DNA from: an uncultured Lachnospiraceae bacterium
GTDB lineage: Bacteria; Bacillota; Clostridia; Lachnospirales; Lachnospiraceae
Length of the DNA: 63,745 nucleotides
NCBI GenBank assembly: GCA_905235545.1
Contig: CAJOMI010000001.1
Location: 1 to 63,745, forward strand
Reading direction: 5' to 3'
Part shown: positions 18,080 through 51,056 of the stretch, one piece after another
How positions within the stretch are numbered: the first letter of the stretch is position 1
How the letters are laid out: each line of letters begins with the position of its first letter
Notes under the pieces: generated by a model
What the model was told of the DNA's origin: nothing
The model's input: the letters and a program-made list of their open reading frames with translations, nothing else
The model's database searches: none
Translations under genes and position numbers: made by a program

Positions 18080-18676
18080 ATGGCAGATTATCCGATTATA
18101 GCAGATGTCAGTGCATATATTGTAAAAACGCTGCGGCAGAAGATGTGTCCGGAGCCGATACCGTCTCCGAATAACATAGAGATTTCTTCTCCGGCATCTC
18201 AGGATGTGGACTACATATTAGGTCTGTATCTGTATGATGTAAGGGAAGAGAATGATGTGACCAGACCCCCGCAGGTGCAGAGGGGCAGGGTGCAATTAAC
18301 CGTACCGCCAAAACCATATAGTTTATACTATATGGTGTTTATCAATGGGTCTTCCCAGATGGGACTTAAGGCTCCGGATATACAAAAAATTATAGGAAGG
18401 GTAGCACAAATTATCAATGATAACAATTCTGTGCGACCGAACGAACTGCAATCCTGGCTGGATACAGAGGAACCTCCGATTGTACTGTCTCAGGCGAAGA
18501 TAAGTCTGGAGGAGAAGGTAAGGGTGTGGAGCGCGATCAACAAGCCATATCAGATCAGTCTCTTTTACAAGGCGGCACCTGTTTTTCTGTCCAGTGAGGT
18601 TGTAATCAACACACCGAGAGTAACAGAAGCAAGTTTTGGTGTGGATATAACCGGTGTAGGAAGGAGGGAGCAGTAG
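18080..18676 (+). CDS. DUF4255 (Pvc16/Afp16 N-terminal-like) CIS tail terminator/cap-like protein
   Basis: IADVSAYIVKTLRQ…ILGLYLYDVREEN…YSLYYMVF…LSQAKISLEEKVRVWSAINKPYQISLFYKAAPVFL follows the DUF4255 pattern. Confidence 0.7.
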   Translation: MADYPIIADVSAYIVKTLRQKMCPEPIPSPNNIEISSPASQDVDYILGLYLYDVREENDVTRPPQVQRGRVQLTVPPKPYSLYYMVFINGSSQMGLKAPDIQKIIGRVAQIINDNNSVRPNELQSWLDTEEPPIVLSQAKISLEEKVRVWSAINKPYQISLFYKAAPVFLSSEVVINTPRVTEASFGVDITGVGRREQ

Positions 18677-18679
18677 AAT

Positions 18680-19417
18680 TTGGAAAATGGCGCTGTAATA
18701 AGGTACAGGCTGGATTTGCTGATCCGGCTCACAGACACGACCACGGGACAAGCCGTAACCTCACAGAGTGCAATGTTTCGAAGAGACGGAAAGTTGATGC
18801 CTTCCAGACTGAAGGGAGATGGCAATTATATCTTTGTAGATATTGGAAGAGAAAACTCTCTGATACAACTTACCGTTCCGGGATATGACGCACTGGAATT
18901 CTCAGTAGATTACGAAGAACTTGACGAGAACATGCCTTCCATAGATTTATTCCTGATACCGTCAGAGAATACAGAATCCATACTGACTCTTTCAGGGAAG
19001 ATGCGAGGCTTGACGGCAGTCGAGGCGGTGCAGCTTGGCAAACCGGTTTGCAGCATTAATGAATTTGATCCAAAGGGGAACCGGGTATCGCTCTTTTTGC
19101 CTAATCGGCAGATGAATATGGAGGGCGGTCATTATGGGCTCTTACATGGAGAGAAGGACTACGAACATTTTGTAGTCGAGGAGCAACCGAATCAATCAAC
19201 GGTTAAGCTCAAAGATCAATTAAAAGATGATTTTTCTGTCGGAAGCGGAATCGCCCGGGTGATTTTCGGGCGGGTAGGTGAAAAAGGCAATTATGTTTTG
19301 AGAGTCCGCAATACGGCAGAGCACCCCAGGTATCTGGTGCGTTATACCACAGATCAGAGTGTGAAATACCGGGTGTATGACTTTGGCGGTGATGAACCGG
19401 CCGAAGAAAAATCATAA
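18680..19417 (+). CDS. CIS-associated hypothetical protein, 245 aa, possible carboxypeptidase-regulatory-like beta-sandwich
   Basis: TTG start 4 nt after the previous stop, with GGAGGGAG upstream. LTDTTTGQAVTS…GDGNYIFVDIGRENSLIQLTVPGYD resembles the CarboxypepD_reg pattern. Weak call. Confidence 0.35.
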   Translation: MENGAVIRYRLDLLIRLTDTTTGQAVTSQSAMFRRDGKLMPSRLKGDGNYIFVDIGRENSLIQLTVPGYDALEFSVDYEELDENMPSIDLFLIPSENTESILTLSGKMRGLTAVEAVQLGKPVCSINEFDPKGNRVSLFLPNRQMNMEGGHYGLLHGEKDYEHFVVEEQPNQSTVKLKDQLKDDFSVGSGIARVIFGRVGEKGNYVLRVRNTAEHPRYLVRYTTDQSVKYRVYDFGGDEPAEEKS

Positions 19418-19429: not shown

Positions 19430-19819
19430 ATGGGACAGATTGTGACAACAGGAGCAACGCTTATATGCAGTATGGGACTTGGCACATCTACATTGAATGT
19501 CACCAGCCAGCAGACGACACTTTCCGATGGAAAGCCGGTGGCGACAATAGGGGATGCAATGGCGATGACCAATATAGCTCCATTTGGTATGTGTACGTCA
19601 ATGGCAAACCCGCAGGTAGCGGCAGCTACGGCAGCAGCGATGGGAGTACTCACACCGCAACCGTGTATTCCACAGACGACAGGTTCGTGGATTCCAAGTC
19701 AGTCCAAGGTGCTTGCAGGCGGAAAACCCTGCCTCACAAATGATTGCAAATTGGCATGTGCATATGCGGGGAATATAAGCATTACCATGCCGGGACAATT
19801 AATTTCAAGTGTAAACTAA
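19430..19819 (+). CDS. DUF4280 PAAR-like spike-tip protein
   Basis: GATLICSMGLGTSTLNV…NIAPFGMCTSMANPQVAAATAAAMGVLTPQPCIP…W…GGKPCLTNDCKLACAYAGNISI is the DUF4280 signature. Confidence 0.75.
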   Translation: MGQIVTTGATLICSMGLGTSTLNVTSQQTTLSDGKPVATIGDAMAMTNIAPFGMCTSMANPQVAAATAAAMGVLTPQPCIPQTTGSWIPSQSKVLAGGKPCLTNDCKLACAYAGNISITMPGQLISSVN

Positions 19820-19837: not shown

Positions 19838-21553
19838 ATGGCTGAATATTTTTCACCGGGGGTTTATGTTGAGGAGTACGACAACACTCCTCGTAGCATA
19901 GAGGGTGTAGGAACCAGCACCGCAGGCTTTGTAGGCTTTGCAGAAAAGGGTGCAACAACCGGAGCACCTGCCCTTGTAACAAATTTTAGAAGTTTTACCA
20001 AACAATTTGGAGGTTTTTTATCCGAATACACACACGGAGAATATCGTTTTCTTGCAAACAGTGTTGAGCAGTTCTTCGCAAACGGAGGAACTCGCTGTTA
20101 TGTAAGTCGTGTCGTACCGCCGGATGCAGTCAGTGCAAAGAAGAAGATGGGTATCCTCACGGTAACCGCAGCAAATGAGGGTAAGTGGGGTAATCGGATT
20201 CAAATTTCTTTGAACACAGTGACAAAACGTAAGATGCAGTTGATCGCCAAATCAGGAGACACATCCTATGTGGCAAAGGCCGTGGATGGATTCCGTGAGG
20301 GAGATGTGGTAACGATCAATGGAGAGTATAATCGCATCGCTGCAATCTATGATACAACCGTAACCTTTGAGAACAAATTCAAGGCAGATGTGGTTGATGA
20401 GTCGGTTATACCGCAGAAAGTTTTATATCTTGTAGCATTTAATGCACAGATTCGTTTTAACGATGATGTAGAGAATTACAGTGATCTTTCACTTAATGTA
20501 ACATCTCCGAATTATGTGGTTTCAAGATTGGCAGCAAGTGAACTTGTGAAGGTTGAGGCTTCACAGACCAAGGAAATCGGTAATCCGGTTGCAGCCATCC
20601 TTGGAAAGGGTGTTACGGATGGTATGTTCACACTGGAGGGAGGAAATGACGGTTCTATGAACAAAGTCAATGCCGGAACCTTTATCGGTGTGGATGATGG
20701 TCCGGGTAAACGAACCGGCCTTCAGGCTTTCTTAGAGAACGATGTAGTAAGCATGATGGCAATTCCGGGTGTAACCATTCCGGAAGTAGTCGCTGCACTC
20801 GTGGCACATTGTGAGAACTCAAGAAGCCGCTTCGCAGTGATCGATATGCCTGGAAACGCATACAAGACAGACGAATTGATCCAGTACAGAAGTATGATCG
20901 ATTCAACATATGCTGCCATGTATCATCCTTGGATTCAGGTATATGACAGAGGATCAAACAAACCTGACTTTATACCTCCTTCAGGAGCTGTCATGGGTGT
21001 TTATTCAAGAACAGACATCAATCGTGGTGTACATAAGGCTCCGGCGAATGAAACCGTATTCTGTTCCGGTCTTAAGGTGAATTACACCAAGGAAGAGCAG
21101 GATATCCTGAATCCGGAAGGCGTTAACCTGATCCGTAATATTCCGGGACAGGGCATTCGAATCTGGGGTGCCAGAACAGCGAGCAGTAACAGTGCATTTA
21201 AGTATGTCAATGTAAGACGACTCTTTATCTATGTGGAAGAGAGCATTCGTGCCAATACAAGCTGGGTTGTATTTGAACCGAATGATCCGACCCTTTGGCA
21301 GAGAGTAAGCCTTACGATCAGCTCCTTCTTAGATGGCATGTGGCGTTCCGGTCAGCTTTCCGGTTCATCGCCTTCAGAGGCATATTTTGTGGAAATCGGA
21401 CCGCAGACCATGAGTCGTGACGATATATTGAGCGGCAGATTGATCTGTAATATCGGAATTGCACCGTCAAGACCGGCAGAGTTTGTAATCTTCCGTGTAA
21501 CACAGCACACTGCAGAGGCAGGAGGTACTACAGAGGAGACGACAGAAGGTTAA
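19838..21553 (+). CDS. contractile tail sheath protein
   Basis: The N-terminus MAEYFSPGVYVEEYDNTPRSIEGVGTSTAGFVGFAEKG and the C-terminal GVNLIRNIPGQGIRIWGARTAS…YVNVRRLFIYVEESI are classic sheath motifs. Confidence 0.9.
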   Translation: MAEYFSPGVYVEEYDNTPRSIEGVGTSTAGFVGFAEKGATTGAPALVTNFRSFTKQFGGFLSEYTHGEYRFLANSVEQFFANGGTRCYVSRVVPPDAVSAKKKMGILTVTAANEGKWGNRIQISLNTVTKRKMQLIAKSGDTSYVAKAVDGFREGDVVTINGEYNRIAAIYDTTVTFENKFKADVVDESVIPQKVLYLVAFNAQIRFNDDVENYSDLSLNVTSPNYVVSRLAASELVKVEASQTKEIGNPVAAILGKGVTDGMFTLEGGNDGSMNKVNAGTFIGVDDGPGKRTGLQAFLENDVVSMMAIPGVTIPEVVAALVAHCENSRSRFAVIDMPGNAYKTDELIQYRSMIDSTYAAMYHPWIQVYDRGSNKPDFIPPSGAVMGVYSRTDINRGVHKAPANETVFCSGLKVNYTKEEQDILNPEGVNLIRNIPGQGIRIWGARTASSNSAFKYVNVRRLFIYVEESIRANTSWVVFEPNDPTLWQRVSLTISSFLDGMWRSGQLSGSSPSEAYFVEIGPQTMSRDDILSGRLICNIGIAPSRPAEFVIFRVTQHTAEAGGTTEETTEG

Positions 21554-21632: not shown

Positions 21633-22133
21633 ATGGCAGATAATCCATATCAGAACAGTAAGGGGCTTGCATATCCCTTAACCAAGATGAACTTCAAGGT
21701 AAGTGTGGCAAATGTAGAGGGTACAGCTGCATTTTCCCAGGTAACAGGCATTGAGGCAAGTGTTGATGTTATCGAGTTCCGTCAAGGCAATGCAAACTCA
21801 TTGGCACCGGTAAAGATTCCGGGACTGGTAAAGCATGGCAATGTAACACTTCGTTTTGGCTATACATTAGACAGTGCTTTTAAGACCTGGATTCAGGAGT
21901 GTGTGAGTGAGACACGTGGTCAGATACCGAGAAATGATGTACAGATTGAACTTGTGGATATCAACGGTGGAGCACCACAACAGCTGGCAACAGCAATTAC
22001 AGGTACCCGTGTTTGGCTGCTGACTAACGCATGGGTTACCAAGTACACGGCTCCGGAGCTTGATGCAAAGACGAGTGATGTCGCAATCGAATCCGTAGAG
22101 CTTGCGTATGAGGAGCTTATCATCCCGAACTAG
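21633..22133 (+). CDS. tail tube protein (T4 gp19-like / Afp1-like)
   Basis: YPLTKMNFKVSVANVEGTAAFSQVTGIEASVDVIEFRQGN… matches the phage tail tube family. It lies directly downstream of the sheath gene. Confidence 0.85.
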   Translation: MADNPYQNSKGLAYPLTKMNFKVSVANVEGTAAFSQVTGIEASVDVIEFRQGNANSLAPVKIPGLVKHGNVTLRFGYTLDSAFKTWIQECVSETRGQIPRNDVQIELVDINGGAPQQLATAITGTRVWLLTNAWVTKYTAPELDAKTSDVAIESVELAYEELIIPN

Positions 22134-22248
22134 AATCTGAAATAGTAATCGAAGCATTCAAAAAGATAACAGTTCATCTTAATGTTCCGCGAAAAAGCGG
22201 GATATTAAGGTGGACTTTATCTGCATTATATATGTTGAGGAGAATAGA

Positions 22249-22611
22249 ATGGAAACAGTATATGAATTTACCCTTCCAAAGGGATACATTGATGCAAATG
22301 GAGATATTCACAGAAATGGCAAGATGCGTCTGGCAACGGCAGGTGATGAGATCAGTGCGACGAGAGACCCGAGAGTATTGTCCAATCCGTCGTATCTTAC
22401 GATTGTAATTTTATCAAGAGTTGTTACGGAGTTAGAGGGCGTGCAGACCATAAGTGCTACATTGATCGAGCGGTTATTTACTGCGGATCTGGCTTTCCTG
22501 CAGGACATGTACCAGAGAATTAATGATATTGAGCCGCCGACTATGCAGGTGGTGTGTCCGGATTGTGGAAAGACATTTGAGGTACCGCTAAATTTTACCA
22601 TCGGGGAATAA
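22249..22611 (+). CDS. tail assembly chaperone-like protein with C-terminal zinc-ribbon (alternative GTG start 22210)
   Basis: ATG 22249 follows a GAGGAG RBS. It holds the conserved position after the tube gene and carries CPDCGKTF near the C-terminus. Confidence 0.55.
   Translation: METVYEFTLPKGYIDANGDIHRNGKMRLATAGDEISATRDPRVLSNPSYLTIVILSRVVTELEGVQTISATLIERLFTADLAFLQDMYQRINDIEPPTMQVVCPDCGKTFEVPLNFTIGE
22590..22596 (+). other. candidate -1 programmed frameshift heptamer A_AAT_TTT
   Basis: In the zero frame this reads cta AAT TTT, an X_XXY_YYZ pattern. The -1 frame is open from 22581 and continuous with the downstream 22614-22817 ORF. Confidence 0.35.
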
Positions 22612-22613
22612 GT

Positions 22614-22817
22614 TTGTATCCGGAGGATGAATTATATCGGGAGATGGCCTTTATCTCATACTATTTCCATTGGAGTGAACGGGAAGTTATGCAGATGGAA
22701 CATGGTGAGCGCAGACGCTGGTGTAATCAGATATCTTCCATCAATCAGAGCTTAAACCCCGCAGACAACAGAAAAGAAAAGAGTATTTTGGATATGAAAC
22801 CTACGAATGTGAGGTAA
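22614..22817 (+). CDS. small CIS protein, DUF6760-like (possibly also expressed as a -1 frameshift extension of the chaperone)
   Basis: MAFISYYFHWSEREVMQMEHGERRRWCNQISSIN matches the short conserved eCIS protein pattern. TTG start with GGGGA upstream. Confidence 0.55.
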   Translation: MYPEDELYREMAFISYYFHWSEREVMQMEHGERRRWCNQISSINQSLNPADNRKEKSILDMKPTNVR

Positions 22818-26731: not shown

Positions 26732-27595
26732 ATGAGTTTATTTGATAATCTCCAGGCGATAAATGGTGCAGTACCAAAGGCAATACTCTTTGTACAAAAG
26801 AGGAAGCTTAGTTATGAAAGTACTGAAAAGGCGACCAATATCAATAAGAATATTTCGGCGTTGAGAAATGTGACGAAGGCGGGTAAGTCAAGTTCTATAG
26901 CAAAGCGTATGGCAAAGATGAAACCCGGACAGGTCGTGGGCATAGGAACCATTGGAAGTAATCAGGTATCAAAGGCGCAGAGCGCAGATGAAGTGAATAT
27001 AGCTCTTGCACAGGAGAACTTTTTACGGTTTGAGGTACAGTATAATCCAAACACCATTTCAACAAGGACCAGTGCAGGAAGACATAATGATTATCGTGCC
27101 ATGGGCGATTCCGGTAACAGGCAGTTGAATACGATAAATCGTGTGCCGAACACTTATCTGGATGTGCAGCTTGTGTTTGAGGATATCAATGTGCAGGATG
27201 CGTTTATGACAGAGAATCTCAATCCTACGGTTGCAAATGCGGTTGATATGGTAGGGAATGTTATCCGTACGGTGAATAATGACAATCACAGTATTAAAGA
27301 TCAGGTGGAGGGGATACTTTCCCTGTTGATTACGGAGAATTCAAGAAGAGTTGTATTCTTCTGGTCAGAGATGTTTTTTCACGGAGTGGTCGAGTCCGTA
27401 CAGGCAACCTATACGATGTTCAATAAATTAGGAGATCCCATTAAGGCTACGGTCGATCTGACCATTCGTCAGGCTGCAGGTGGTGAAGCGTATAAATCAG
27501 ACATAGAATATTGGGATAAGGCATATAAACAGGTATTTCAGGAAAACGGTGCAGTGTCAAGCACAATGAAAAACATAAACCGGTTCTTTGGGTAG
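26732..27595 (+). CDS. CIS tube-initiator / baseplate-tube junction protein (CIS_tube-like, no LysM), paralogue 1
   Basis: FLRFEVQYNPNTISTRT… and …VVFFWSEMFFHGVVESVQATYTMFNKLGDPIKATVDLTI match the Afp7-type N-terminal tube fold pattern. Confidence 0.55.
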   Translation: MSLFDNLQAINGAVPKAILFVQKRKLSYESTEKATNINKNISALRNVTKAGKSSSIAKRMAKMKPGQVVGIGTIGSNQVSKAQSADEVNIALAQENFLRFEVQYNPNTISTRTSAGRHNDYRAMGDSGNRQLNTINRVPNTYLDVQLVFEDINVQDAFMTENLNPTVANAVDMVGNVIRTVNNDNHSIKDQVEGILSLLITENSRRVVFFWSEMFFHGVVESVQATYTMFNKLGDPIKATVDLTIRQAAGGEAYKSDIEYWDKAYKQVFQENGAVSSTMKNINRFFG

Positions 27596-38142: not shown

Positions 38143-38164
38143 ATATGACTTGGAGGACAAAGAT

Positions 38165-45500: not shown

Positions 45501-48500
45501 GATGAGAAGCTGATAGAGCATTTTGAGGATATATTAAAGCTTACCACCAGATGGAAAATCATCAAGGAGAAGCTTTCCGTATATGATGAACAGGGAATGC
45601 ATATTCCTTCCGAAGACAGGATAAAACTTAAGGGATTACAGGAGATGCTTTCTGACGCACAGGTTTACCTTATATTAAAACTGAATCAGATAAAAAATCC
45701 ATTTTATAAGAATATGCACCTCTCTGACGAGATAGGCAATGAAAATACGGATGTAGAAGCATTTAACAGACGGTTAGAAAAATTCGAGAATGACAATGCG
45801 GAGCTTATGAACTATGTGCAGGCAACAGGGCTTGTTGTCAATTCCGCATTTCTTTCGATGTTTGCCGGCAATGGAAAGAATACGGCAGAGAAATATATTC
45901 AGGCTGTTTCAACTTCAGAGGAAGCAAGAATACAGGAAACAAACCAAAATCGTATATCGAAAATGGCAGATAACTATGCAGCTGTCACTTATCTGTTTGA
46001 CGGAGGAGAGGGACAGATTAACGCAGATATGCGCTTATTTTCTGAGGGATCAGGTAAGCGAGAAGGAAGAACCAAAAAAAGCTTAGAGGCAGTAGACGCG
46101 TATACTGCGTATAACGAAAAAGTTATGGATACTTTTAAGACGGCCAAAGAAAGGTTAAAAGTAATCCGTTATGCAAATTATGATATCGATCCTAAGATCA
46201 TCAACGGAATTTATACAATGTTAAAGATCGGAGGTACTGAAGAGGACATCAAGTATAATACAGAGCTCCTTATGAACCTCGGGGCGGAGAATATTAACAC
46301 AAGAGGAGCAGCGTACAAAGAGATGGTAGATAACTTACTCGCTGTTGAGCTATCTAAGTTTGACAGATGCGATGATGAGTATTTTATCGCTAATTATACG
46401 GAGCTTAAGTCTTTAGCGGAACCGGCAATCGCATTGGCCCGGCCGGGAGTGATCAATTCGTTTGCAAAGAACGGATATCGAATATCAGAACAGAAGAAGA
46501 AAAATCTGGTTGCCCTTTCGGATAATATCAAAAAATATATGGACTTTATGGATGCACGTATGAAGGTCATTCAACATCCGCTTTACGAACTCGTATTTCG
46601 GGAGACGGATAACAACAAGGATTTCAAACCTGAGGAATTGAAACAACGGATGTTAAGAGCCGGTCAGATGATGAGTTCAAAAGACAGGGACTATATAGAG
46701 GTTCTTGTGAATGCATTCTCCGTAAGCTTTCCGTTTGCAATGCGTAATATGTCTATGCGGGAACGACTTGAAGCAGACGGTTATAAAACTCCGGAGGGAG
46801 GAGCTTATGATGAGGATATCGCCGGTAATGAGGCTTATCAGCAAGAGATTGCAGACGATCATATAATAAAAGAGACAGTGGAGCTTCGGACAGAGCAGTT
46901 CGTTACCAATGTGCTCAAAGAACTTGGCACGGGTGATGGAAAGCAGAGTTTGGAGGATTATGAGAAGCAGAACGCTGACAGGGAGAAGAGAAAAACACTT
47001 TCCGAGAAAATGAGAACACTTCCGGAATTCGATAGCGTCGAGCCGGTAATACTTGTAATGGATCTTTTGGCAGGACATGAGGATGTAATTAATGCATTCC
47101 TCTCCATGGATTTTAAGGAACTTGATAATCTTAGTGATGAAACTATCGTTGAAAGATATCAGGATATAGCAGCACTTTGCAGAGTGGATGATCAGGTTCG
47201 TCCGGCGCTTGAAACACTAAGGGCAGATTATAATGATACGAACAAGGATGCGAAGGATAAACCAACAACCACAACAATATCTGCAGTGGTGGGCAGACTG
47301 GAAATGCTGAATGATCTGAGAAATTATATGGTGGTTAAGAGATTGGTTATCAGCAATCCACTATATGAGAAGCATTATAATGAGGCTTATCTATCGTATC
47401 ATGAAGATGCGGGTGCTATGCATGATAAGATAGATTCTTTGGAGGGAAAGCTAAGCGAAGATGAGGCGGAATATCTTAGGAATGTTGCAAGTATTATGAG
47501 TAAACCGTTCATGGCAAGATACACCGGCAACGGTAAAACCACGGCTGATGCTTATGGAAAACAGCAGGAAAACGATAACTTTGCAAGAGGCGAGCTGAAA
47601 GATGAAGGTAAAAAGAACGTCATTTTAGATGAGAATGAAAGATCTGCGGGTGAGATTTCCGGTGATCCGGAGGATATCAATACTTCGTTGGCGAATATAG
47701 AGGGAGAACTGGGTTCTAAAGCAATGTCGGAACCGTTGAATGAATTGAAAACATTCACGGAAACTTCCCAATATCAGCAACGGCTCTATAAGAGAGAAAT
47801 GCAAACCAGAAATTTTTCCAAAGATATCAACCATAATATGCAGCCGATCAAGGAACAGATTAAAATAATATTTAATCTGTTAAATGAGGAGATGAATTAC
47901 GGTCATGATGACCAGTTTGCTGAAGAATTGGATTTGCTACTCAATCATTTTGAGGTATTGGGTGTATTATGCAGTCAGTATCTGACCGGTACGCGAAACA
48001 AAACGTCGGATGATATGAATCAGGCTGCGATCAGAAAGGTGCGAAGGATCAGAGATATTGCCCATTATGCATATACCCAGACATACACCAGTGCGCGCAT
48101 GAGCCGTATATATTTCAGACAGCAGGATATATCCGGAAGAAGAGTTCCATGGATCAATATGTATCACTATGCGGAGCAACCTATTGTATGGGAACAGGGA
48201 TTGGTTCCATATACAGAGATCAATAAAGAAGAAATATCGGCGATAAAAGGTGAGAAGAAACCAAGGACCAGGCTTAAGGAATTTACACCTGAGGATAATT
48301 CTTTTGTGAAGATCGAACACTGGATGACAATATTTTCCGAATGCAAGCCAGACTATGTCAATGCGATTGACCGTGAGCTGTCCATTAAAGACATGGAAAA
48401 GATTGAGAAGCTGGTAAACACTGTAAATATGCGGACAAATCAGGGGCTTCCGGATGATTCGAGGGATTTTATCCGGGCATGTGATGATATGATACATTCC

Positions 48501-48803
48501 TTTACCGCTACGAATATTCGATTAAAAAAGTATATTGATAATATGAAGGTTGAGACGGAGGATGACAAGACACAGAAGCGGATGTTGGAGAATGTTATGT
48601 ACCTGTTGAAGTCACAGATTGATTTATACAATGTATATGGAAATAGCGTTCCGGATACATACGAGGTTATAAAGAATGATCCCAAGAATGATACGATCAG
48701 TGATGTATTTTTGTCATGGTATCAGGATTATGCAGCCAGAGCCATAAAAAAGATGGAACAGATGAAGCAGGTGGAAGCAGGTACAGGTGAGAAAGATTCG
48801 TAA
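42570..48803 (+). CDS. giant charged repeat protein, 2077 aa, five ~250-330-aa internal modules; function unknown (cargo or scaffold candidate)
   Basis: Single uninterrupted ORF with a GGGGGGA RBS. A recurring motif pair [ST]D[FV]SI[FL]D … Y[ML]D[YF]…R[ML]x[IV]I..P[FL]Y appears five times. No signal peptide, TM or catalytic motif recognised. Confidence 0.6.
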   Translation: MDEVVLSEEEIKELKNQILNGVKNAKAQNIKERKQKIYNDNANLINDYLKKQREQEIVRRNRKKKSRTGGNKNIQNNYNRTVKNDQSDNSLKNNFIKKEEEKREEINNRIKKSFPEPEKTDENKLPEVEGGKGVFELPQDMEIEKQPEEKNAGQEDELILEINGKVVDIENLEERVSAVPGMEEVEQNEENDRQGDIADHVINEVGAAKNEPNNEVEEEAKNERNNEIEEEAKNERNNEPNNEIEEEAKNERNNEPKEEAKNERNNEPNNEVEDAAKNEPEIEYDDFLSGLYFVLTGKEKRYTAVERNELMDKDVDKRLLYHRTMQKKLELDAVNQIKKERNKNEFKDKIKNFEENMRDTDGMRRIDGFLKMDYTIFDNFEDIYIVLNFEKLNNAIEQSEHIYKDVLPLAVEAGTIDENTRVNVTALAMAIDDYKEYMNYRIMIIADENYTLALDEEPFRMNADDAAIYERLDKFTSDNNLSERNLNTLMHFVTYKTGMNGNDKGDRKRNPLFAEHFNDEKSNMLTRMQQYGFSAEEKEENVDEDIDEDLAALEQQVKAEDVDQEADREAANIPEVPEILIPKRRRQLNYLITGNDIMPQELHEGEEKNRSDLAGKAREIYQAWENMNPELSLERALLDVSKYEEQGFILPPEILEVVRAGIRPGESLEVRKANADTLAEGMYRGDNEDAKQLPHILISNYMRTDFSIFDALDDEAIVSHYNEAKRLLNYGLSLQELFYQTADNKTCLLSQDRADNFYAILSALRDYMDYATIRMDIIRSPFYSLFDVDKEIKEQDIKQVEDAGKGEYEADLLMYIKKYADIAPYIEKVKRGGFYERASGYGYVDINEYLDENPEMQEKFREYITQEKNMEMFAVLPQLVEYYGEEDETAIENIARSNELRIERNNFNNVQKVVGSNKDYDEVKNDPKYEEQTAGREALSERAVELINSLNVEETDANIWLDELMDTDVSILDNMSSDEKLIEHFEDILKLTTRWKIIKEKLSVYDEQGMHIPSEDRIKLKGLQEMLSDAQVYLILKLNQIKNPFYKNMHLSDEIGNENTDVEAFNRRLEKFENDNAELMNYVQATGLVVNSAFLSMFAGNGKNTAEKYIQAVSTSEEARIQETNQNRISKMADNYAAVTYLFDGGEGQINADMRLFSEGSGKREGRTKKSLEAVDAYTAYNEKVMDTFKTAKERLKVIRYANYDIDPKIINGIYTMLKIGGTEEDIKYNTELLMNLGAENINTRGAAYKEMVDNLLAVELSKFDRCDDEYFIANYTELKSLAEPAIALARPGVINSFAKNGYRISEQKKKNLVALSDNIKKYMDFMDARMKVIQHPLYELVFRETDNNKDFKPEELKQRMLRAGQMMSSKDRDYIEVLVNAFSVSFPFAMRNMSMRERLEADGYKTPEGGAYDEDIAGNEAYQQEIADDHIIKETVELRTEQFVTNVLKELGTGDGKQSLEDYEKQNADREKRKTLSEKMRTLPEFDSVEPVILVMDLLAGHEDVINAFLSMDFKELDNLSDETIVERYQDIAALCRVDDQVRPALETLRADYNDTNKDAKDKPTTTTISAVVGRLEMLNDLRNYMVVKRLVISNPLYEKHYNEAYLSYHEDAGAMHDKIDSLEGKLSEDEAEYLRNVASIMSKPFMARYTGNGKTTADAYGKQQENDNFARGELKDEGKKNVILDENERSAGEISGDPEDINTSLANIEGELGSKAMSEPLNELKTFTETSQYQQRLYKREMQTRNFSKDINHNMQPIKEQIKIIFNLLNEEMNYGHDDQFAEELDLLLNHFEVLGVLCSQYLTGTRNKTSDDMNQAAIRKVRRIRDIAHYAYTQTYTSARMSRIYFRQQDISGRRVPWINMYHYAEQPIVWEQGLVPYTEINKEEISAIKGEKKPRTRLKEFTPEDNSFVKIEHWMTIFSECKPDYVNAIDRELSIKDMEKIEKLVNTVNMRTNQGLPDDSRDFIRACDDMIHSFTATNIRLKKYIDNMKVETEDDKTQKRMLENVMYLLKSQIDLYNVYGNSVPDTYEVIKNDPKNDTISDVFLSWYQDYAARAIKKMEQMKQVEAGTGEKDS
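43191..43410 (+). repeat. tandem 36/48-bp in-frame DNA repeats encoding AKNE(R/P)NNE(PNNE)(I/V)EEE units
   Basis: GCAAAGAATGAAC(C/G)GAATAA(C/T)GAA… recurs six times from 43191 to 43395. Confidence 0.8.
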
Positions 48804-48851
48804 ACGAGTCTTGACATGAAATGAGGTCAGGGATAGAAGAGGTGATATACA

Positions 48852-51056
48852 ATGTATGGATACGGAGATTATTATGACGAGAGACTTACCCAAATTCCAT
48901 ATACGGACAGCAGTGAAGAACTTGAGGATTACAGGGCATTAGTTGAGATTATGTTAGAGGATCTGGCGGGAATCAAGGGGGTCGGCACAGAGGAAGGATT
49001 GTTCTCCAAAGGGCTGGTAATCTCCGAAGCAGAGATGCAGGAGTATTTTGTGAATCACCCTTCCGTCAGAGAAAAGGATTTTTATTTCTATATATTGGGT
49101 GATGTGGTGAAACAGGCAATAGGACACATAGAAAGCAGAGAGGAGAGCACATCGGATAATGTCTTTTTGCCCATAAGGAATATCAGAAAGAATTTTGGAC
49201 TCAGTGACGCTTGGACAGTGGCATTGGTACTTGCCTTCCTTGCCCATACGAACAGGGGATATGAGAGAATATATGGATTTTTGCAGGATGATATAGAAAG
49301 CAGTGAACCGACACTGGGACTTGCTGTTTCTTTGTGTGAGAGAGCCTTTTATGAGGATAAACTCAGTGCTTCAGATATACTGTCGGACAAGTCATATCTG
49401 TTCGGAACGTTATTCATGGAGGAGGGAATCAATCCGGTATATCCTCTTCGCACGAAACTGATCCTGACAGGAGCAGCACTGACTTATATGAATGGGAATA
49501 CCACTCTTTTTGGTTATGGTGCCGGGATTCCGTATGGCTTGCTATGTGAATATGAAGACGGGAAGACGCCGGCCTTTTTTGAAAAGGAGGTAAAGGTGCT
49601 TTTCAATCTGATCAGACATGGTGACGCGTTACCGTGCCTGTTTGTGGAAGGCAGGGATCAGGATGCGATCATTCATGTGGCAGCGCTGGCGGCGCGTGCT
49701 AACGGAAAGCGTTTCGTCACCGTGTCGGGTGAGTCAATAAGTACGGCAGATGAAATGGAATGTTCCGGTATGGTGGCTTTTTTGTCTTTTTATGGTCATA
49801 TGGAAGGAATTACGGTGATGGTAACGGATGTGACGGATGAGAGGCTTGCAGATGAATCCTTTACGCGCATATTGAAGAGATTGATCCGGACAGAGGGAAT
49901 TGCCCCATTTCTATTTGCAGGAAGTGATCAGACACCGGAAAGATTTAAGACCGGAGCTGCGACGGGAACGCCTGTCCTCCATTTGCAACTACCGGTACCG
50001 GATGTAAAAGTCCGAACCACGATATGGGATTATTTTATCAAAGATGCCGGATTGTCCAAAGAAAAGGGATTTTCCAGCGAGGAGATCGCAGACTGTTATG
50101 AGGTAGGCTATGGTGTTATCAAGACTGCAGTGTCCCAGGCAAAACTCAATATGCTGGCAAATGGAGTAAAAAAGGTTAACAAGGATATCGTAGCCGATGC
50201 ACTGAAAGGAATCGGAACGGTCAACTTCAAAGGACTGGCCAAGGAGGTGCGGGCAGTCTACACATGGGAGGATCTTTGTATTGGAGATACGGAGCGCAGA
50301 GTGCTTCAGACGGCATGTGACCGCTATAAGATAAAGAACCGCATCGGTGAGAACTGGGGCATTACGAAAAAAAATGCTTACGGAAACGGTGTATCGGTGT
50401 TGTTGTATGGTCCGCCGGGAACCGGTAAAACCATGTCGGCACAGGTGGTGGCAAGAGAAATCGGACTTCCGTTATATCGTGTAGATACGTCGCAGCTCTT
50501 CTCAAAATATATCGGGGAGACACAAAAGAACTTAAATGCGGTATTTGACGAGGCAGAGGCTTCCAATGTGATACTGTTTTTTGATGAGGCGGATGCGCTT
50601 TTTTCAAAGAGGACGGATGTGGAGAGTTCCAATGACCGTCATGCTAATCAGGAAATCGCTTTTCTTCTCCAGAGGATAGAGGAATATAAAGGAATGAGTC
50701 TGCTTGCCACAAACTTTTATTCGGGATTTGATCAGGCATTTGTACGTCGTATCACATACGCGGTGAGATTAGAACAGCCGGATTACGAGACAAGACTCTC
50801 TCTTTGGAACAATACGCTTCCGGAAGAGGTCCCGAAGGAAAAATCAATTGATTATGAATTTTTAGCAAAGAATTTTGAACTTACGGGAAGTAACATCAAG
50901 GCAATCCTTCTCTCGGCTGCTTATATGGCCGGAGCAGAGGACGGAATGCTTTCCATGGCACATATCGTCCGGGCTATGAAATATGAGTTTGACAAGCTCG
51001 GCATGATGCCGGACTCGGGCAAATTTGGACCTTATTCCGTGTATTTGTTTGGATGA
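48852..51056 (+). CDS. Afp15-like CIS AAA+ ATPase, copy 2 (734 aa)
   Basis: Walker A LLYGPPGTGKT, Walker B ILFFDEAD, and LLATNFYSGFDQAFVRRI. The C-terminal module is clearly alignable to copy 1. Confidence 0.8.
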   Translation: MYGYGDYYDERLTQIPYTDSSEELEDYRALVEIMLEDLAGIKGVGTEEGLFSKGLVISEAEMQEYFVNHPSVREKDFYFYILGDVVKQAIGHIESREESTSDNVFLPIRNIRKNFGLSDAWTVALVLAFLAHTNRGYERIYGFLQDDIESSEPTLGLAVSLCERAFYEDKLSASDILSDKSYLFGTLFMEEGINPVYPLRTKLILTGAALTYMNGNTTLFGYGAGIPYGLLCEYEDGKTPAFFEKEVKVLFNLIRHGDALPCLFVEGRDQDAIIHVAALAARANGKRFVTVSGESISTADEMECSGMVAFLSFYGHMEGITVMVTDVTDERLADESFTRILKRLIRTEGIAPFLFAGSDQTPERFKTGAATGTPVLHLQLPVPDVKVRTTIWDYFIKDAGLSKEKGFSSEEIADCYEVGYGVIKTAVSQAKLNMLANGVKKVNKDIVADALKGIGTVNFKGLAKEVRAVYTWEDLCIGDTERRVLQTACDRYKIKNRIGENWGITKKNAYGNGVSVLLYGPPGTGKTMSAQVVAREIGLPLYRVDTSQLFSKYIGETQKNLNAVFDEAEASNVILFFDEADALFSKRTDVESSNDRHANQEIAFLLQRIEEYKGMSLLATNFYSGFDQAFVRRITYAVRLEQPDYETRLSLWNNTLPEEVPKEKSIDYEFLAKNFELTGSNIKAILLSAAYMAGAEDGMLSMAHIVRAMKYEFDKLGMMPDSGKFGPYSVYLFG

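What the first reader, a model, noticed from the sequence alone, without database searches (positions are those of the whole stretch)
18080..51056. Headless contractile injection system (phage-tail-like particle) in a Clostridia-type genome
A complete contractile tail and baseplate set is present in one orientation. It comprises a DUF4255 cap-like protein, DUF4280 PAAR-like protein, sheath, tube, chaperone pair, second tube protein and tape-measure-like protein. It also has two tube initiators, a gpD-like hub, a VgrG/gp5 spike, gp25, two large wedge proteins, a gpI-like protein and two Afp15-type AAA+ ATPases.

There is no capsid, portal, terminase, head-tail connector, integrase, holin or repressor. 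DUF4255 plus an Afp15-like ATPase is the hallmark combination of eCIS (Afp/PVC-type) loci rather than prophages or T6SS. The accessory content around it (see the other findings) does not match the well-described Afp/PVC, MAC or Bacteroidales layouts that I know.
Basis: partly seen in the sequence, partly recalled or inferred. Interest (0 to 1): 0.7.

Follow-up and report, generated by a model that had tools for sequence, protein, structure and literature searches.

The report
Headless injection system in gut Lachnospiraceae
This is a real phage-tail-like injection machine with no virus head, from a gut or rumen Lachnospiraceae bacterium; it is a little-studied Gram-positive variant that carries its own cell-envelope gene set and a phosphorylation switch.

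Summary
Window 18080-51056 encodes, on one strand, a cap (DUF4255), a PAAR-like DUF4280 protein, sheath, tube and a tube-fold protein. It also encodes two CIS_tube initiators, a split hub and spike, gp25, two Baseplate_J wedge proteins, a gpI/TssG-like protein and two AAA+ ATPases. No head, terminase, portal, integrase or lysis gene was found in the window or in 10 kb to its left.

It is not Afp/PVC-like. Gene content matches lineage II subtype IIa. The closest solved sheaths are from the haloarchaeal membrane-bound "T6SS" and the cytoplasmic Streptomyces CIS.

The system is larger than reported. A Cis13-family protein and six membrane or secreted proteins, including a TolC-like one (2068-17915), are syntenic with the sheath in about 20 Lachnospiraceae loci. 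The usual fibre slot holds a STAS protein and a membrane GHKL kinase-like protein. An RsbW-like kinase and a PP2C phosphatase (55236-57392) probably complete a partner-switching module. A fast-evolving 2077-aa orphan protein lies between the two ATPases.

My best reading (about 0.5) is a cell-envelope-associated, phosphorylation-gated CIS. The main rival (about 0.3) is a lysis-released particle. It is a new variant of a known kind, with an interest score of 0.6.

The parts
2068..3855 (+). Cis13-family protein (595 aa). The N-terminal 135 aa resemble a baseplate-binding domain and the rest is beta-rich. It is the first gene of the conserved upstream module.
   Evidence: NCBIfam CIS13_fam NF053767, E 3.7e-26, residues 8-142. 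More than 1140 full-length homologues, with no sign of C-terminal domain swapping. Syntenic in L016, L026, L033 and L055. The AF2 model has low confidence.
3860..4702 (+). 280-aa protein with a single C-terminal transmembrane segment (tail-anchored). It is a candidate membrane adaptor.
   Evidence: Hydrophobic segment at 228-263. Conserved next to the Cis13-like gene in L016, L018, L026, L028, L030, L033 and L055. No family hit.
4727..7258 (+). 843-aa polytopic membrane protein.
   Evidence: At least four hydrophobic segments. Conserved upstream of the sheath in at least 15 Lachnospiraceae loci at 24-34% identity. No family hit.
7275..8519 (+). 414-aa MORN-repeat protein with one N-proximal transmembrane segment.
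   Evidence: Pfam MORN, 1.9e-9. TM segment at 61-93. Present in 19 of 21 loci with sheath identity of at least 64% and enough upstream sequence.
8707..10947 (+). 746-aa secreted TolC-like (OEP) protein with an additional C-terminal domain.
   Evidence: Pfam OEP 7e-11, above the gathering score, in two stretches. NCBIfam TolC 2.4e-8. A family profile hits TolC chains in PDB at E 2.5e-4 to 2e-3, in two stretches. The N-terminus looks like a signal peptide. Present in 20 of 21 such loci.
10988..14095 (+). 1035-aa N-terminally anchored acidic protein, a variable paralog of the next gene.
   Evidence: N-terminal TM or signal anchor. Shares N- and C-terminal domains with the 1271-aa protein. 51% identical in the closest relative, L005, and only partly conserved elsewhere.
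14100..17915 (+). 1271-aa N-terminally anchored protein, paralog of the previous gene.
   Evidence: No family hit.
18080..18676 (+). Cap / tail terminator (Cis16/Afp16, DUF4255).
   Evidence: Pfam Pvc16_N, 2.8e-28.
18680..19417 (+). 245-aa conserved protein of unknown role.
   Evidence: Homologues lie between the cap and DUF4280 genes in 28 Lachnospiraceae-type loci. No family or PDB match.
19430..19819 (+). PAAR-like spike tip (DUF4280).
   Evidence: Pfam DUF4280, 5e-32.
19838..21553 (+). Contractile sheath (Cis2).
   Evidence: Pfam sheath domains. PDB matches: 9ezm Halogeometricum Cis2 at 1.6e-106, and 8bky/8bl4 at 1e-93 to 1e-91, which I attribute to the Streptomyces CIS.
21633..22133 (+). 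Inner tube (Cis1).
   Evidence: Pfam Phage_T4_gp19, 5.8e-32.
22210..22611 (+). Tail-assembly-chaperone-like protein. The true start is probably the ATG at residue 14.
   Evidence: phrog_508, 5e-9. Conserved in 73 loci, with alignments starting at residues 10-16.
22614..22817 (+). 67-aa conserved partner of the chaperone-like protein.
   Evidence: Conserved in 72 loci, out to Streptomyces.
22822..24183 (+). Tube-fold protein (N-terminal about 155 aa) with a C-terminal extension of W-x-F-D...G-N-G repeats.
   Evidence: hhalign against the tube family: probability 86.6%, E 4.5e-6, 134 columns. Repeats are visible in the sequence.
24188..26728 (+). Putative tape-measure-like protein (846 aa). The assignment is positional.
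   Evidence: No family hit. The ends are conserved and the middle is variable. A 201-bp in-frame tandem repeat lies at 25580-25959.
26732..27595 (+). Tube initiator 1 (CIS_tube).
   Evidence: Pfam CIS_tube, 2.7e-15.
27652..28986 (+). Tube initiator 2 (CIS_tube), paralog of the previous gene with a C-terminal extension.
   Evidence: Pfam CIS_tube, 9.5e-10. 23% identical to the previous protein, E 2e-21.
28999..30369 (+). Baseplate hub (gp27/gpD-like half of a split Afp8).
   Evidence: Pfam YQBQ 6e-7. VgrG_rel 6.6e-9. phrog_196 baseplate hub.
30369..31262 (+). Spike (gp5/VgrG OB-fold half of a split Afp8).
   Evidence: Pfam Phage_base_V, 9e-21.
31406..31864 (+). Sheath initiator gp25 (Cis9).
   Evidence: Pfam GPW_gp25, 1.1e-16.
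31830..34853 (+). Baseplate wedge Cis11a (1007 aa).
   Evidence: TIGR02243 2.5e-24. phrog_6. PDB 9gtp Baseplate J-like chain, 3.8e-10.
34918..37047 (+). Baseplate wedge Cis11b (709 aa).
   Evidence: Pfam Baseplate_J 2.3e-6. phrog_6 3e-16. PDB 9gtp 2.6e-6.
37060..38142 (+). gpI/TssG-like wedge protein (Tail_P2_I) with an extra N-terminal domain of about 185 aa.
   Evidence: Pfam Tail_P2_I, 8.7e-12, residues 187-312. phrog_48. 197 homologues; those that carry a source name are Lachnospiraceae, Butyrivibrio or Agathobacter.
38150..38464 (+). STAS protein (RsbV/SpoIIAA-like) in the slot where fibre genes usually sit.
   Evidence: Pfam STAS, 1.4e-17. Found directly after Tail_P2_I in L087, L088 and L089. 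The Y-x-S-S-A-G-L-R motif is invariant.
38478..39578 (+). Membrane-anchored GHKL ATPase (histidine-kinase-like) with two TM segments, an acidic repeat linker and a coiled coil. No recognisable HisKA domain.
   Evidence: Pfam HATPase_c, 1.9e-20, residues 260-365. TM segments. Conserved in L087, L088 and L089. 42-bp repeats.
39639..39902 (+). 87-aa acidic protein that precedes the first ATPase in related loci too.
   Evidence: 80%, 35% and 34% identical in L087, L088 and L089. No family hit.
39970..42465 (+). AAA+ ATPase 1 (Cis15-like, 831 aa).
   Evidence: Pfam AAA, 6.6e-27. Walker A and B motifs intact.
42570..48803 (+). Giant acidic all-alpha orphan protein (2077 aa) with five divergent internal repeats. 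It is the candidate cargo or effector.
   Evidence: No family or PDB hit. Only 6 clusters among 1.84 billion representatives. 42% identical in loci whose other compared genes are mostly 65-94% identical. Repeats. The AF2 model is all-helical with low confidence.
48852..51056 (+). AAA+ ATPase 2 (Cis15-like, 734 aa, with a winged-helix domain).
   Evidence: Pfam AAA 4.3e-28 and WHD 8.5e-11. Downstream genes are not conserved in L084, so this marks the right end of the core.
55236..56900 (+). Membrane PP2C phosphatase (two TM segments, HAMP and SpoIIE domains). Probable phosphatase of the STAS module.
   Evidence: Pfam SpoIIE 2.3e-50 and HAMP. A PP2C gene lies beside RsbW-like and STAS genes directly upstream of the CIS in Paenibacillus L053. 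The link to the CIS is inferred.
56961..57392 (+). RsbW/SpoIIAB-like serine kinase (HATPase_c_2). Probable kinase of the STAS protein.
   Evidence: Pfam HATPase_c_2, 2.7e-20. Its homologue at 49% identity lies one gene after the STAS gene, inside the CIS cluster of L088.

Best explanation
This is a chromosomal, head-less contractile injection system of a Lachnospiraceae bacterium. It belongs to eCIS-superfamily lineage II and its gene content matches subtype IIa. The functional unit runs from about 2068 to 51056, plus a probable kinase and phosphatase pair at 55236-57392.

Shown here:
- A complete set of genes for cap, sheath, tube, tube initiators, split hub and spike, PAAR-like tip, gp25 and a Cis11a/Cis11b/gpI-like wedge, plus two AAA+ ATPases.
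- Conserved synteny of this core with a Cis13-family protein and six membrane or secreted proteins.
- A STAS protein with an intact phospho-serine motif and a membrane GHKL protein in the slot where fibre genes normally sit.
- A fast-evolving giant orphan protein between the two ATPases.

Inferred:
- The particle assembles in the cytoplasm.
- It docks at the producer's own membrane and envelope through the Cis13-like protein and the TM, MORN and TolC-like module, rather than being released as a free fibre-bearing particle.
- Assembly or firing is gated after translation by a partner-switching circuit. In that circuit the STAS protein is phosphorylated by the RsbW-like or GHKL kinase and dephosphorylated by the membrane HAMP-PP2C phosphatase, in response to an envelope signal.
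- The two ATPases load or recycle components.
- The giant variable protein is the delivered cargo.
For: Core identity.

Not a prophage.

Lineage:
- The closest solved sheaths are 9ezm (Halogeometricum, subtype IIa, bound to the cytoplasmic membrane; PMC11566945) and 8bky/8bl4, which I attribute to the cytoplasmic Streptomyces CIS.
- Two afp11 copies and a split afp8 match subtype IIa as defined in PMC6899500.

Envelope module:
- A CIS13_fam N-terminal domain heads an operon of TM and secreted proteins.
- The module is present in 19-20 of 21 loci with sheath identity of at least 64%, and absent from more distant relatives.
- Proteins with signal peptides or anchors cannot be parts of a particle built in the cytoplasm. 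Their tight linkage therefore points to a function at the producer's envelope.

No fibre at the expected position:
- In Tail_P2_I-type baseplates, fibre genes lie directly downstream of Tail_P2_I (PMC12923769).
- Here, and in L087, L088 and L089, that slot is occupied by the STAS gene.

Switch:
- The STAS Y-x-S-S-A-G-L-R motif is invariant.
- The homologue of the window's RsbW-like gene lies one gene after the STAS gene inside the L088 cluster.
- An independent RsbW-like, STAS and PP2C trio lies directly upstream of a differently arranged CIS in Paenibacillus L053.
- Both the GHKL protein and the PP2C are membrane-embedded.

Cargo:
- The giant protein is the most divergent of the genes compared with L087 and L084.
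- It is all-alpha rather than fibre-like.
- In relatives the slot next to the ATPases always holds a giant orphan protein of 1269 to 2155 aa.
Against: No experiment or image exists for any member of this clade, so the mode of action rests on context and analogy.
- The Cis13-like protein has no transmembrane helix, unlike Anabaena Cis13. It is beta-rich with Ig-like domains, which would also suit a receptor-binding fibre.
- PMC12923769 reports functional validation of a Paenibacillus fibre and argues for extracellular action in Bacillota, so some Bacillota relatives may be released.
- A Gram-positive wall is a serious barrier to outward firing.
- A SleB-like wall hydrolase with a TM anchor lies nearby (57408-58601) and could serve release.
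- The PP2C and RsbW-like pair is separated from the core by two unrelated genes, and no PP2C was seen within 10 kb in L087-L089.
- No toxin domain is recognisable in the giant protein.
- The TolC similarity is partial: Pfam is above threshold, but the PDB profile hits are only about 1e-3.
Confidence: 0.5

Rival explanations
1. It is a classical extracellular CIS. Particles are built in the cytoplasm, released by lysis of a subpopulation, bind a target cell (bacterium, protist or host) through the Cis13-like protein acting as a fibre, and inject cargo. The upstream envelope proteins would then serve immunity, receptor masking or release. The STAS, kinase and phosphatase module would control production or lysis.
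For: - All hallmark eCIS families, including DUF4255 and Afp15-like ATPases, are present.
- A beta-rich, Ig-like Cis13-family protein is present.
- A membrane-anchored SleB-type wall hydrolase lies 6 kb downstream.
- PMC12923769 reports functional validation of a Paenibacillus fibre and argues for extracellular action in Bacillota.
Against: - No fibre gene lies in the conserved slot after Tail_P2_I.
- The Cis13-like protein shows no C-terminal domain shuffling across the family, unlike typical receptor-binding proteins.
- No holin or endolysin cassette is present, and the genes downstream of the second ATPase have no counterpart in L084, the one relative examined.
- The systems with the closest solved sheaths are not extracellular.
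- This reading gives no reason for seven envelope proteins to stay syntenic with a particle released by lysis.
Confidence: 0.3
2. It is a Streptomyces-like intracellular CIS. Free cytoplasmic particles fire against the producer's own membrane under stress or during development (here possibly sporulation), causing regulated cell death or differentiation rather than attacking other cells.
For: - The second-closest solved sheath is the one I attribute to the Streptomyces CIS.
- That system lacks fibres and needs a membrane protein, CisA, encoded where fibres usually are.
- The window organism carries germination genes (CspB, SleB) close to the cluster, and the phosphatase is of the SpoIIE family.
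- A stress-type partner-switching module fits a stress-triggered response.
Against: - The gene content matches IIa, with two Cis11 and a split Afp8, not IId.
- The neighbouring germination genes are not shown to be conserved with the CIS.
- The large secreted proteins and the hypervariable giant protein fit interaction with other cells better than self-killing.
Confidence: 0.15
3. It is a degraded prophage or an R-type tailocin (diffocin-like bacteriocin).
For: The sheath, tube and baseplate genes are of phage-tail ancestry, and PHROG tail families are hit.
Against: - The DUF4255 cap and two AAA+ ATPases are eCIS markers that phage tails and tailocins lack (PMC6899500 and PMC12210884).
- There are no head, terminase, integrase, repressor or lysis genes, and no tRNA or att-like feature.
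- The same layout is conserved across many Lachnospiraceae species at 64-85% sheath identity.
Confidence: 0.02

Closest known systems
Haloarchaeal CIS / 'archaeal T6SS' of Halogeometricum borinquense (eCIS subtype IIa; PMC11566945; sheath PDB 9ezm)
   Same: - It is the closest solved sheath by sequence (E 1.6e-106).
- It also has Cis11a/Cis11b and Cis13 components.
- That paper states that the nearest relatives of haloarchaeal Cis11 are Bacillota.
- A conserved membrane protein is encoded upstream of its core cluster.
   Different: - The host is an archaeon with an S-layer envelope, not a Gram-positive wall.
- Its structural genes are split by a toxin/immunity region.
- The parts of the paper I read mention no STAS/GHKL/PP2C module, TolC-like protein or giant protein flanked by two ATPases.
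- Homology between its anchor, Hbor_38620, and any window protein was not tested.
Streptomyces coelicolor CIS-Sc (subtype IId; PMC10066040, PMC12237407; PDB 9gtp for the baseplate, and 8bky which I attribute to this system)
   Same: - The host is Gram-positive.
- It is the second-closest solved sheath (1.9e-93), and the window's Cis11 proteins match the 9gtp baseplate J-like chain.
- It has no conventional fibre gene, and a membrane protein is encoded in the fibre slot.
   Different: - It has a single Cis11 gene and an unsplit Afp8 (IId).
- It has CisA rather than a STAS and GHKL pair.
- It has no upstream envelope module.
- Sheath identity is only about 36-37%.
Afp / PVC (lineage I eCIS of Serratia and Photorhabdus)
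   Same: - The core protein families are the same: cap DUF4255, sheath, tube, gp25, Baseplate_J, spike, PAAR-like protein and AAA+ ATPase.
- A very large cargo gene lies near the ATPase end, recalling Afp18. That comparison is from my own knowledge and was not tested here.
   Different: - Lineage I has three sheath paralogs, an Afp12 wedge, Afp13 fibres and a recognisable Afp14, and it occurs in Gram-negative hosts.
- Its sheath match to the window is much weaker (about 1e-42 to 1e-49).
- Its gene order differs: in the window the cap comes first and the ATPases last.
Anabaena thylakoid-anchored tCIS (PMC8894136)
   Same: It uses a Cis13 protein whose N-terminal domain binds the baseplate, as a membrane connector rather than a target-binding fibre.
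   Different: - Anabaena Cis13 carries a transmembrane helix, and the window's Cis13-like protein does not.
- The sheath match is distant (1e-46).
Partner-switching modules that gate secretion machines. Examples are Bordetella BtrU/V/W for the T3SS, and by analogy the PpkA/PppA/Fha threonine-phosphorylation pathway of the Pseudomonas H1-T6SS. These come from my own knowledge and were not checked in the library.
   Same: The window has a STAS antagonist, a GHKL serine kinase and a PP2C phosphatase encoded with a secretion or injection apparatus, and no sigma factor in the window.
   Different: No such module turned up for a CIS in the library searched: no held paper contains both 'contractile injection' and 'STAS domain'. 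The output partner is unknown.

Membership tests
eCIS superfamily (Chen et al. 2019 core set) | Tube (Afp1/5) and contractile sheath (Afp2/3/4) genes | tested here: met
   PF06841, PF19266, PF04984 and PF17482. Sheath matches to CIS structures in PDB.
eCIS superfamily (Chen et al. 2019 core set) | Afp7-type tube initiator/hub, Afp8 spike, Afp9 gp25 and Afp11 Baseplate_J | tested here: met
   CIS_tube twice, YQBQ/VgrG-related hub, Phage_base_V, GPW_gp25, and Baseplate_J/TIGR02243 twice. No LysM domain was detected.
eCIS superfamily (Chen et al. 2019 core set) | Afp15 AAA+ ATPase together with an Afp16 DUF4255 cap. This pair separates eCIS from phage tails and tailocins. | tested here: met
   Pvc16_N 2.8e-28, and two AAA proteins with intact Walker motifs.
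eCIS superfamily (Chen et al. 2019 core set) | No capsid, portal, terminase or integrase genes in or next to the locus | tested here: met
   No such family among the 40 long ORFs. The 10-kb left flank is clean. The right flank beyond 63745 was not recovered.
eCIS subtype IIa (Chen et al. 2019) | Two copies of afp11 | tested here: met
   31830-34853 and 34918-37047 both match Baseplate_J-type models. The rule is taken from PMC6899500.
eCIS subtype IIa (Chen et al. 2019) | afp8 split into gp27-like and gp5-like ORFs, with an afp10 (PAAR-type) gene present | tested here: met
   A 456-aa hub and a 297-aa Phage_base_V protein, plus DUF4280. DUF4280 is PAAR-like, not the canonical PAAR Pfam family.
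eCIS subtype IIa (Chen et al. 2019) | Placement inside the IIa clade of the Afp11 tree | not tested
   No dbeCIS reference sequences were available. Indirect support: the best solved sheath is the IIa Halogeometricum protein, and PMC11566945 places Bacillota Cis11 next to the haloarchaeal one. IIc shares the two-afp11 and split-afp8 features and is not excluded.
Extracellular mode of action (Afp/PVC/AlgoCIS-type) | Tail-fibre or receptor-binding gene downstream of the baseplate wedge genes | tested here: not met
   The gene after Tail_P2_I is a STAS gene, followed by a membrane GHKL gene, here and in three relatives. The expected position is taken from PMC12923769.
Extracellular mode of action (Afp/PVC/AlgoCIS-type) | Any fibre-like protein in the locus | tested here: inconclusive
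   A Cis13-family N-terminal domain protein lies 14 kb upstream of the cap gene. It is beta-rich but its model has low confidence, and it shows no domain shuffling.
Extracellular mode of action (Afp/PVC/AlgoCIS-type) | Particles released into the medium | not testable with these tools
   This needs EM of supernatants from a cultured carrier.
Canonical T6SS (subtypes i-iii) | TssB/TssC two-chain sheath, TssJ/L/M membrane complex, ClpV, and no DUF4255 cap | tested here: not met
   The sheath is a single-chain phage-type protein and a DUF4255 cap is present. No Tss membrane-complex family was hit.
Membrane-anchored CIS (haloarchaeal T6SS-like, T6SSiv, tCIS) | Baseplate attached to a membrane in situ | not testable with these tools
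   This needs cryo-ET. Indirect support comes from the conserved envelope module headed by a Cis13-family gene.
Membrane-anchored CIS (haloarchaeal T6SS-like, T6SSiv, tCIS) | Cis13 with a transmembrane helix (tCIS) | tested here: not met
   The only hydrophobic stretch (46-64) lies inside the conserved N-terminal domain, and there is no terminal TM helix. TM segments are found instead in the adjacent 280-aa and 843-aa proteins.
Streptomyces-type cytoplasmic CIS (subtype IId) | Single afp11, unsplit afp8, and the CisA membrane protein | tested here: not met
   The window has two afp11 copies and a split afp8. CisA homology was not tested because no sequence was at hand.
R-type tailocin / diffocin | Tail plus fibres plus lysis cassette, with no AAA+ ATPase and no DUF4255 cap | tested here: not met
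   ATPases and a cap are present, and there is no lysis cassette.
Partner-switching module (RsbV/RsbW/RsbU, SpoIIAA/AB/E type) | STAS protein with the conserved phosphorylatable serine | tested here: met
   Pfam STAS 1.4e-17. The Y-I-S-S-A-G-L-R motif is invariant in five loci.
Partner-switching module (RsbV/RsbW/RsbU, SpoIIAA/AB/E type) | HATPase_c_2 serine kinase and PP2C phosphatase | tested here: met
   56961-57392 matches HATPase_c_2 at 2.7e-20, and 55236-56900 matches SpoIIE at 2.3e-50. The kinase homologue lies inside the L088 cluster. The full trio lies next to the CIS in L053.
Partner-switching module (RsbV/RsbW/RsbU, SpoIIAA/AB/E type) | A cognate sigma factor as the output | tested here: not met
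   No sigma-70 family domain occurs in any long ORF of the window. The output is therefore unknown and may be a CIS component.

The most novel reading that the evidence does not exclude
The Lachnospiraceae clade has a cell-anchored, outward-firing, T6SS-like injection machine, the first in monoderm (Gram-positive) bacteria. The baseplate docks through the Cis13-like protein onto a dedicated envelope complex made of TM proteins, a MORN protein and a secreted TolC-like protein, which gives passage through the wall. Firing is gated by a STAS/GHKL/PP2C phosphorylation switch that senses the envelope. The hypervariable giant protein, handled by two ATPases, is the delivered effector. The system is widespread in gut and rumen commensals, whereas the surveys I read report gut CIS mainly from Bacteroidota.
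Probability: 0.25. Interest if true: 0.85.

Novelty: new variant of a known kind. Interest (0 to 1): 0.6.

Why it matters
Contractile injection systems are well studied in Gram-negative bacteria. Among Gram-positive organisms, only the Streptomyces system has been characterised in the papers I found, and there it works inside the cell.

Two surveys shape current expectations:
- The other states that human-gut CIS are predominantly from Bacteroidota (PMC12210884).

Here the same layout recurs in dozens of Lachnospiraceae species from rumen and gut, including cultured strains (Butyrivibrio sp. AE2032, Dorea sp. D27, Clostridium sp. CAG:632). An abundant group of gut commensals therefore carries an uncharacterised injection machine.

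Three conserved additions are testable leads on two open questions:
- an envelope module with a TolC-like protein;
- a partner-switching phosphorylation module in the fibre slot;
- a giant orphan protein between two ATPases.

The first question is how a contractile machine deals with a Gram-positive wall. The second is how firing is controlled after translation. The giant proteins could also be a source of new effectors or of engineerable cargo.

Tried and rejected
Searches and models that gave nothing useful:
- The homologue search with the 2077-aa protein returned only the protein itself, because low-complexity words swamped the candidate list. The exhaustive search of residues 301-1400 found just 6 clusters, none with a Pfam domain.
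- The AlphaFold model of the Cis13-like protein had a mean pLDDT of 57.9, and Foldseek gave only generic Ig-like or beta-sandwich matches. The profile search against PDB found nothing.
- The AlphaFold model of one repeat of the giant protein, built on an alignment of its five repeats, had pLDDT 53 and was all-helical. Foldseek found nothing below E 0.7.
- PDB sequence searches with the 245-aa, 453-aa and 2077-aa proteins were empty.
- The right flank beyond 63745 was not recovered. The exact CspB-like and 584-aa proteins are not on record, and by my coordinate arithmetic the two longer identical contigs end near window position 58.7 kb.
- The metagenome scan with ATPase 2 gave only three short loci.
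- Promoter and terminator scans were at background level, apart from one strong terminator at 61621-61654 outside the system.
- There were no tRNA or Rfam hits.
- Two literature searches were badly posed and uninformative.

Readings I considered and rejected:
- Prophage or tailocin: rejected because the ATPases and the DUF4255 cap are present and there are no head or lysis genes.
- Canonical T6SS: rejected because no Tss membrane complex is present and the sheath is phage-type.
- Anti-phage defence ATPase: the IteA hits of 1e-32 to 1e-35 cover only the generic AAA domain and fall far below the model cut-off.
- The LytS-type kinase and response regulator at 468-1935 as the CIS regulator: rejected because the pair is not conserved with the cluster in relatives.

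Full report
**Observation.** The interval 18080-51056 starts at the first codon of a DUF4255 cap gene and ends at the stop codon of an AAA+ ATPase gene. Every gene between 468 and 61547 is on the + strand.

- cap (Pvc16_N, 2.8e-28);
- PAAR-like DUF4280 protein (5e-32);
- sheath (Phage_sheath_1 and 1C);
- tube (gp19, 6e-32);
- a tail-assembly-chaperone-like protein (phrog_508), followed by a 67-aa ORF conserved in 72 related loci;
- two paralogous CIS_tube initiators;
- a gp27/gpD-like hub;
- a Phage_base_V spike;
- gp25;
- two Baseplate_J-type wedge proteins of 1007 and 709 aa;
- a Tail_P2_I protein;
- two AAA+ ATPases.

The two ATPases are 36% identical over their C-terminal 400 residues, and both keep their Walker motifs.

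The 'second tube protein' was the weakest claim. A profile of its N-terminal 155 residues aligns with the tube family over 134 columns (hhalign probability 86.6%, E 4.5e-6), so it stands. The rest of that protein is a repeat extension.

The 'tape-measure-like' 846-aa protein has no homologue of known function. Its position, its conserved ends and an in-frame 201-bp tandem repeat are all that support the label.

**Not a prophage.** None of the 40 long ORFs of the window hits a capsid, portal, terminase, connector, integrase, repressor or holin family. There is no tRNA or Rfam element.

A 107-kb metagenome scaffold whose compared proteins are 100% identical to the window extends 10 kb further left. 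It shows only an ABC transporter, a carboxyl transferase, an S1-domain protein and similar genes.

To the right, the window itself carries 12.7 kb of transporter, signalling and spore-germination genes. I could not recover sequence beyond 63745.

**Who carries it, and which lineage.** The sheath is 85% identical to that of a rumen Lachnospiraceae MAG. It is 64-77% identical to sheaths in some thirty other genomes, mostly labelled Lachnospiraceae, including Acetatifactor, Dorea sp. D27 and Clostridium sp. CAG:632. Identity falls to about 50% in Oscillospiraceae, Paenibacillus and Brevibacillus, and to 36-40% in Streptomyces and many other phyla. Butyrivibrio sp. AE2032, a cultured strain, carries the same layout.

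Against solved structures, the best sheath match is Halogeometricum borinquense Cis2 (9ezm, 1.6e-106). Next come 8bky and 8bl4 (about 1e-93 to 1e-91), which I attribute to the Streptomyces CIS. PVC, tCIS, AlgoCIS and Afp follow at 1e-42 to 1e-49.

The Halogeometricum system is subtype IIa, is bound to the cytoplasmic membrane and mediates contact-dependent killing. Its authors note that the nearest Cis11 relatives are Bacillota (PMC11566945).

Chen et al. (PMC6899500) define IIa and IIc by two afp11 copies, and IIa, IIb and IIc by an afp8 split into gp27-like and gp5-like ORFs. A PAAR-type gene is present everywhere except IIb. The window meets all three criteria. I therefore place it in lineage II with a IIa-type gene content. 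The Afp11 tree that formally defines the subtype was not run.

**The system is larger than reported.** The 595-aa protein at 2068-3855 matches the NCBIfam CIS13 family over its first 135 residues (3.7e-26). It heads a run of six further genes:
- a 280-aa tail-anchored protein;
- an 843-aa polytopic membrane protein;
- a MORN-repeat protein with one TM segment;
- a secreted 746-aa protein with TolC-like (OEP) repeats (Pfam above threshold; family profile against TolC structures at 2.5e-4 to 2e-3);
- two paralogous N-terminally anchored proteins of 1035 and 1271 aa.

The order, from Cis13-like through 280 aa, 843 aa, MORN and TolC-like to the variable giants, then cap, 245 aa, DUF4280 and sheath, recurs in related loci. 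Of 21 loci with sheath identity of at least 64% and at least 7.8 kb of upstream sequence, 20 have the TolC-like gene and 19 the MORN gene. The module is absent from relatives at 54% identity or less, apart from partial matches in a Lachnoclostridium MAG (L033). In many of those distant loci an ATPase gene lies upstream of the sheath instead, next to the cap gene where one is detected.

**A phosphorylation switch in the fibre slot.** In Tail_P2_I-type baseplates, fibre genes normally lie directly downstream of Tail_P2_I (PMC12923769). Here that position holds a 104-aa STAS protein, followed by a 366-aa protein with two TM segments and a histidine-kinase-type ATPase domain but no recognisable HisKA domain.

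The same holds in three relatives whose Tail_P2_I is 76%, 49% and 44% identical. In all three the STAS gene follows Tail_P2_I, and GHKL-type genes lie nearby, sometimes after a small P-loop ATPase gene.

The Y-x-S-S-A-G-L-R motif, which carries the phosphorylatable serine of RsbV/SpoIIAA-type proteins, is invariant.

In the wolf-gut locus L088, the HATPase_c_2 gene one gene after the STAS gene is 49% identical to the window's gene at 56961-57392. In the window that gene lies 6 kb beyond the core, next to a membrane HAMP-PP2C phosphatase.

Independently, Paenibacillus sp. 1P07SE has an RsbW-like, STAS and PP2C trio directly upstream of its differently ordered CIS.

No sigma factor is encoded in the window. 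I infer that the switch acts on the machine itself rather than on transcription. No paper in the held library contains both 'contractile injection' and 'STAS domain'.

**The ATPase-giant-ATPase block.** Between the two ATPases lies a 2077-aa acidic protein with five divergent repeats of 255-330 residues. It is predicted to be all-helical and has no family or structure match.

An exhaustive search of 1.84 billion representatives found only six related clusters.

In locus L087 the other genes compared are 52-89% identical, most of them 72-89%, while the giant protein is 42% identical. In L084 the flanking ATPases are 94% and 65% identical and the giant protein is again 42%.

More distant relatives keep a giant protein beside the ATPases, but its sequence is unrelated. 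Rapid turnover in a fixed slot next to the loading ATPases is what one expects of cargo. This is inference, and no toxin domain is visible.

**How it most likely works.** Established here are a complete particle gene set, its linkage to an envelope module, a partner-switching module, and a variable giant protein.

I infer, at about 0.5, that the particle acts at the producer's own envelope rather than as a released fibre-bearing particle. Four observations point that way:
- Exported proteins cannot be parts of a particle built in the cytoplasm, yet they stay syntenic with it.
- The fibre slot is taken by regulators.
- Both sensors of the switch are membrane-embedded.
- The systems with the closest solved sheaths are membrane-bound or cytoplasmic.

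Several observations point the other way:
- The Cis13-like protein lacks a TM helix and is beta-rich, as a fibre would be.
- PMC12923769 reports functional validation of a Paenibacillus fibre.
- A Gram-positive wall is a real barrier.
- A SleB-type hydrolase is nearby.

The extracellular reading keeps about 0.3. A Streptomyces-like self-directed, development-linked role keeps about 0.15. A prophage or tailocin reading keeps about 0.02.

**Novelty.** The kind of system is known, and relatives in Paenibacillus and Ruminiclostridium appear in published eCIS surveys. What I could not find described are four things:
- the Lachnospiraceae clade itself;
- its envelope module with a TolC-like protein in a family I take to be monoderm;
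- the STAS/GHKL/PP2C module;
- the two ATPases flanking a giant orphan protein.

Surveys state that eCIS are depleted from mammalian microbiomes and that human-gut CIS are predominantly from Bacteroidota. The only paper in the library that uses 'eCIS' in this sense together with 'Lachnospiraceae' is a rumen-ciliate preprint about other taxa. I therefore rate this a new variant of a known kind, with interest 0.6.

**Limits.** Mode of action, cargo identity and the link of the PP2C and RsbW-like pair to the CIS are all inferences from context. Both structure models had low confidence. The subtype was not confirmed by phylogeny. The literature library is incomplete.

Noticed in passing
window 51244-52203 and 58637-59689; also L001:925-1827 (left of the window): Three paralogous LPG_synthase_C (DUF2156, aminoacyl-phosphatidylglycerol-synthase C-terminal type) genes surround the locus. 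By my coordinate arithmetic, the two longer public contigs identical to the window end near window position 58.7 kb, next to the second paralog. That may be an assembly break caused by repeats.
   Followed up: partly
window 52200-55163: A 987-aa fusion protein joins an N-terminal multi-TM region with weak 7TM-histidine-kinase and single-Cache hits to a complete MFS transporter. This is an unusual sensor-transporter architecture. It lies between the CIS core and the PP2C/RsbW-like pair.
   Followed up: no
window 57408-58601 and 59757-61547: A SleB-type cell-wall hydrolase with an N-terminal TM anchor and a CspB-type germination protease with its prodomain. These suggest the host forms endospores. 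Their closeness to a CIS recalls the link between the CIS and development in Streptomyces, but conservation was not shown.
   Followed up: partly
window 61701-63455 (- strand) and 61621-61654: A 584-aa protein with partial similarity to GH149 beta-1,3-glucan phosphorylase (2e-16, far below the cut-off). It converges on a strong 14-bp-stem bidirectional terminator, the only convincing terminator in the scanned regions.
   Followed up: no
window 22822-24183: The C-terminal 290 aa of the tube-fold protein consist of about six repeats of a W-x-F-D/E...G-N-G-(K/E) motif. The repeat number varies between relatives; L006 seems to have an expanded or duplicated version.
   Followed up: partly
window 25580-25959, 38840-38970, 43197-43412: In-frame tandem DNA repeats lie inside three CIS genes: 201 bp x1.9 in the tape-measure-like gene, 42 bp x3.1 in the acidic linker of the membrane GHKL protein, and 84 bp x2.6 in the N-terminus of the giant protein. 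These are likely hotspots of length variation.
   Followed up: partly
window 468-1935: A LytS-type histidine kinase (the N-terminal sensor seems short or missing in this ORF) and a response regulator lie just upstream of the Cis13-like gene. They are not conserved with the CIS in other species.
   Followed up: partly
L053:4628-9066 (Paenibacillus sp. 1P07SE): An RsbW-like kinase, a STAS protein and a PP2C phosphatase are encoded directly upstream of the ATPase-cap-sheath genes of a distantly related CIS. This is an independent association of partner-switching genes with a CIS. None of the other Paenibacillus loci fetched showed it.
   Followed up: partly
L088:11433-12101 and L089:11374-12024: Relatives insert a small ABC_tran/AAA_21-like P-loop ATPase of about 220 aa between the STAS gene and the GHKL gene. 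The window lacks it.
   Followed up: no
window 39970-42465: ATPase 1 appears to contain a second, degenerate AAA-like domain at residues 345-522, which is 25% identical to the active domain of ATPase 2. It may therefore be a tandem-AAA protein with an inactive first ring.
   Followed up: no
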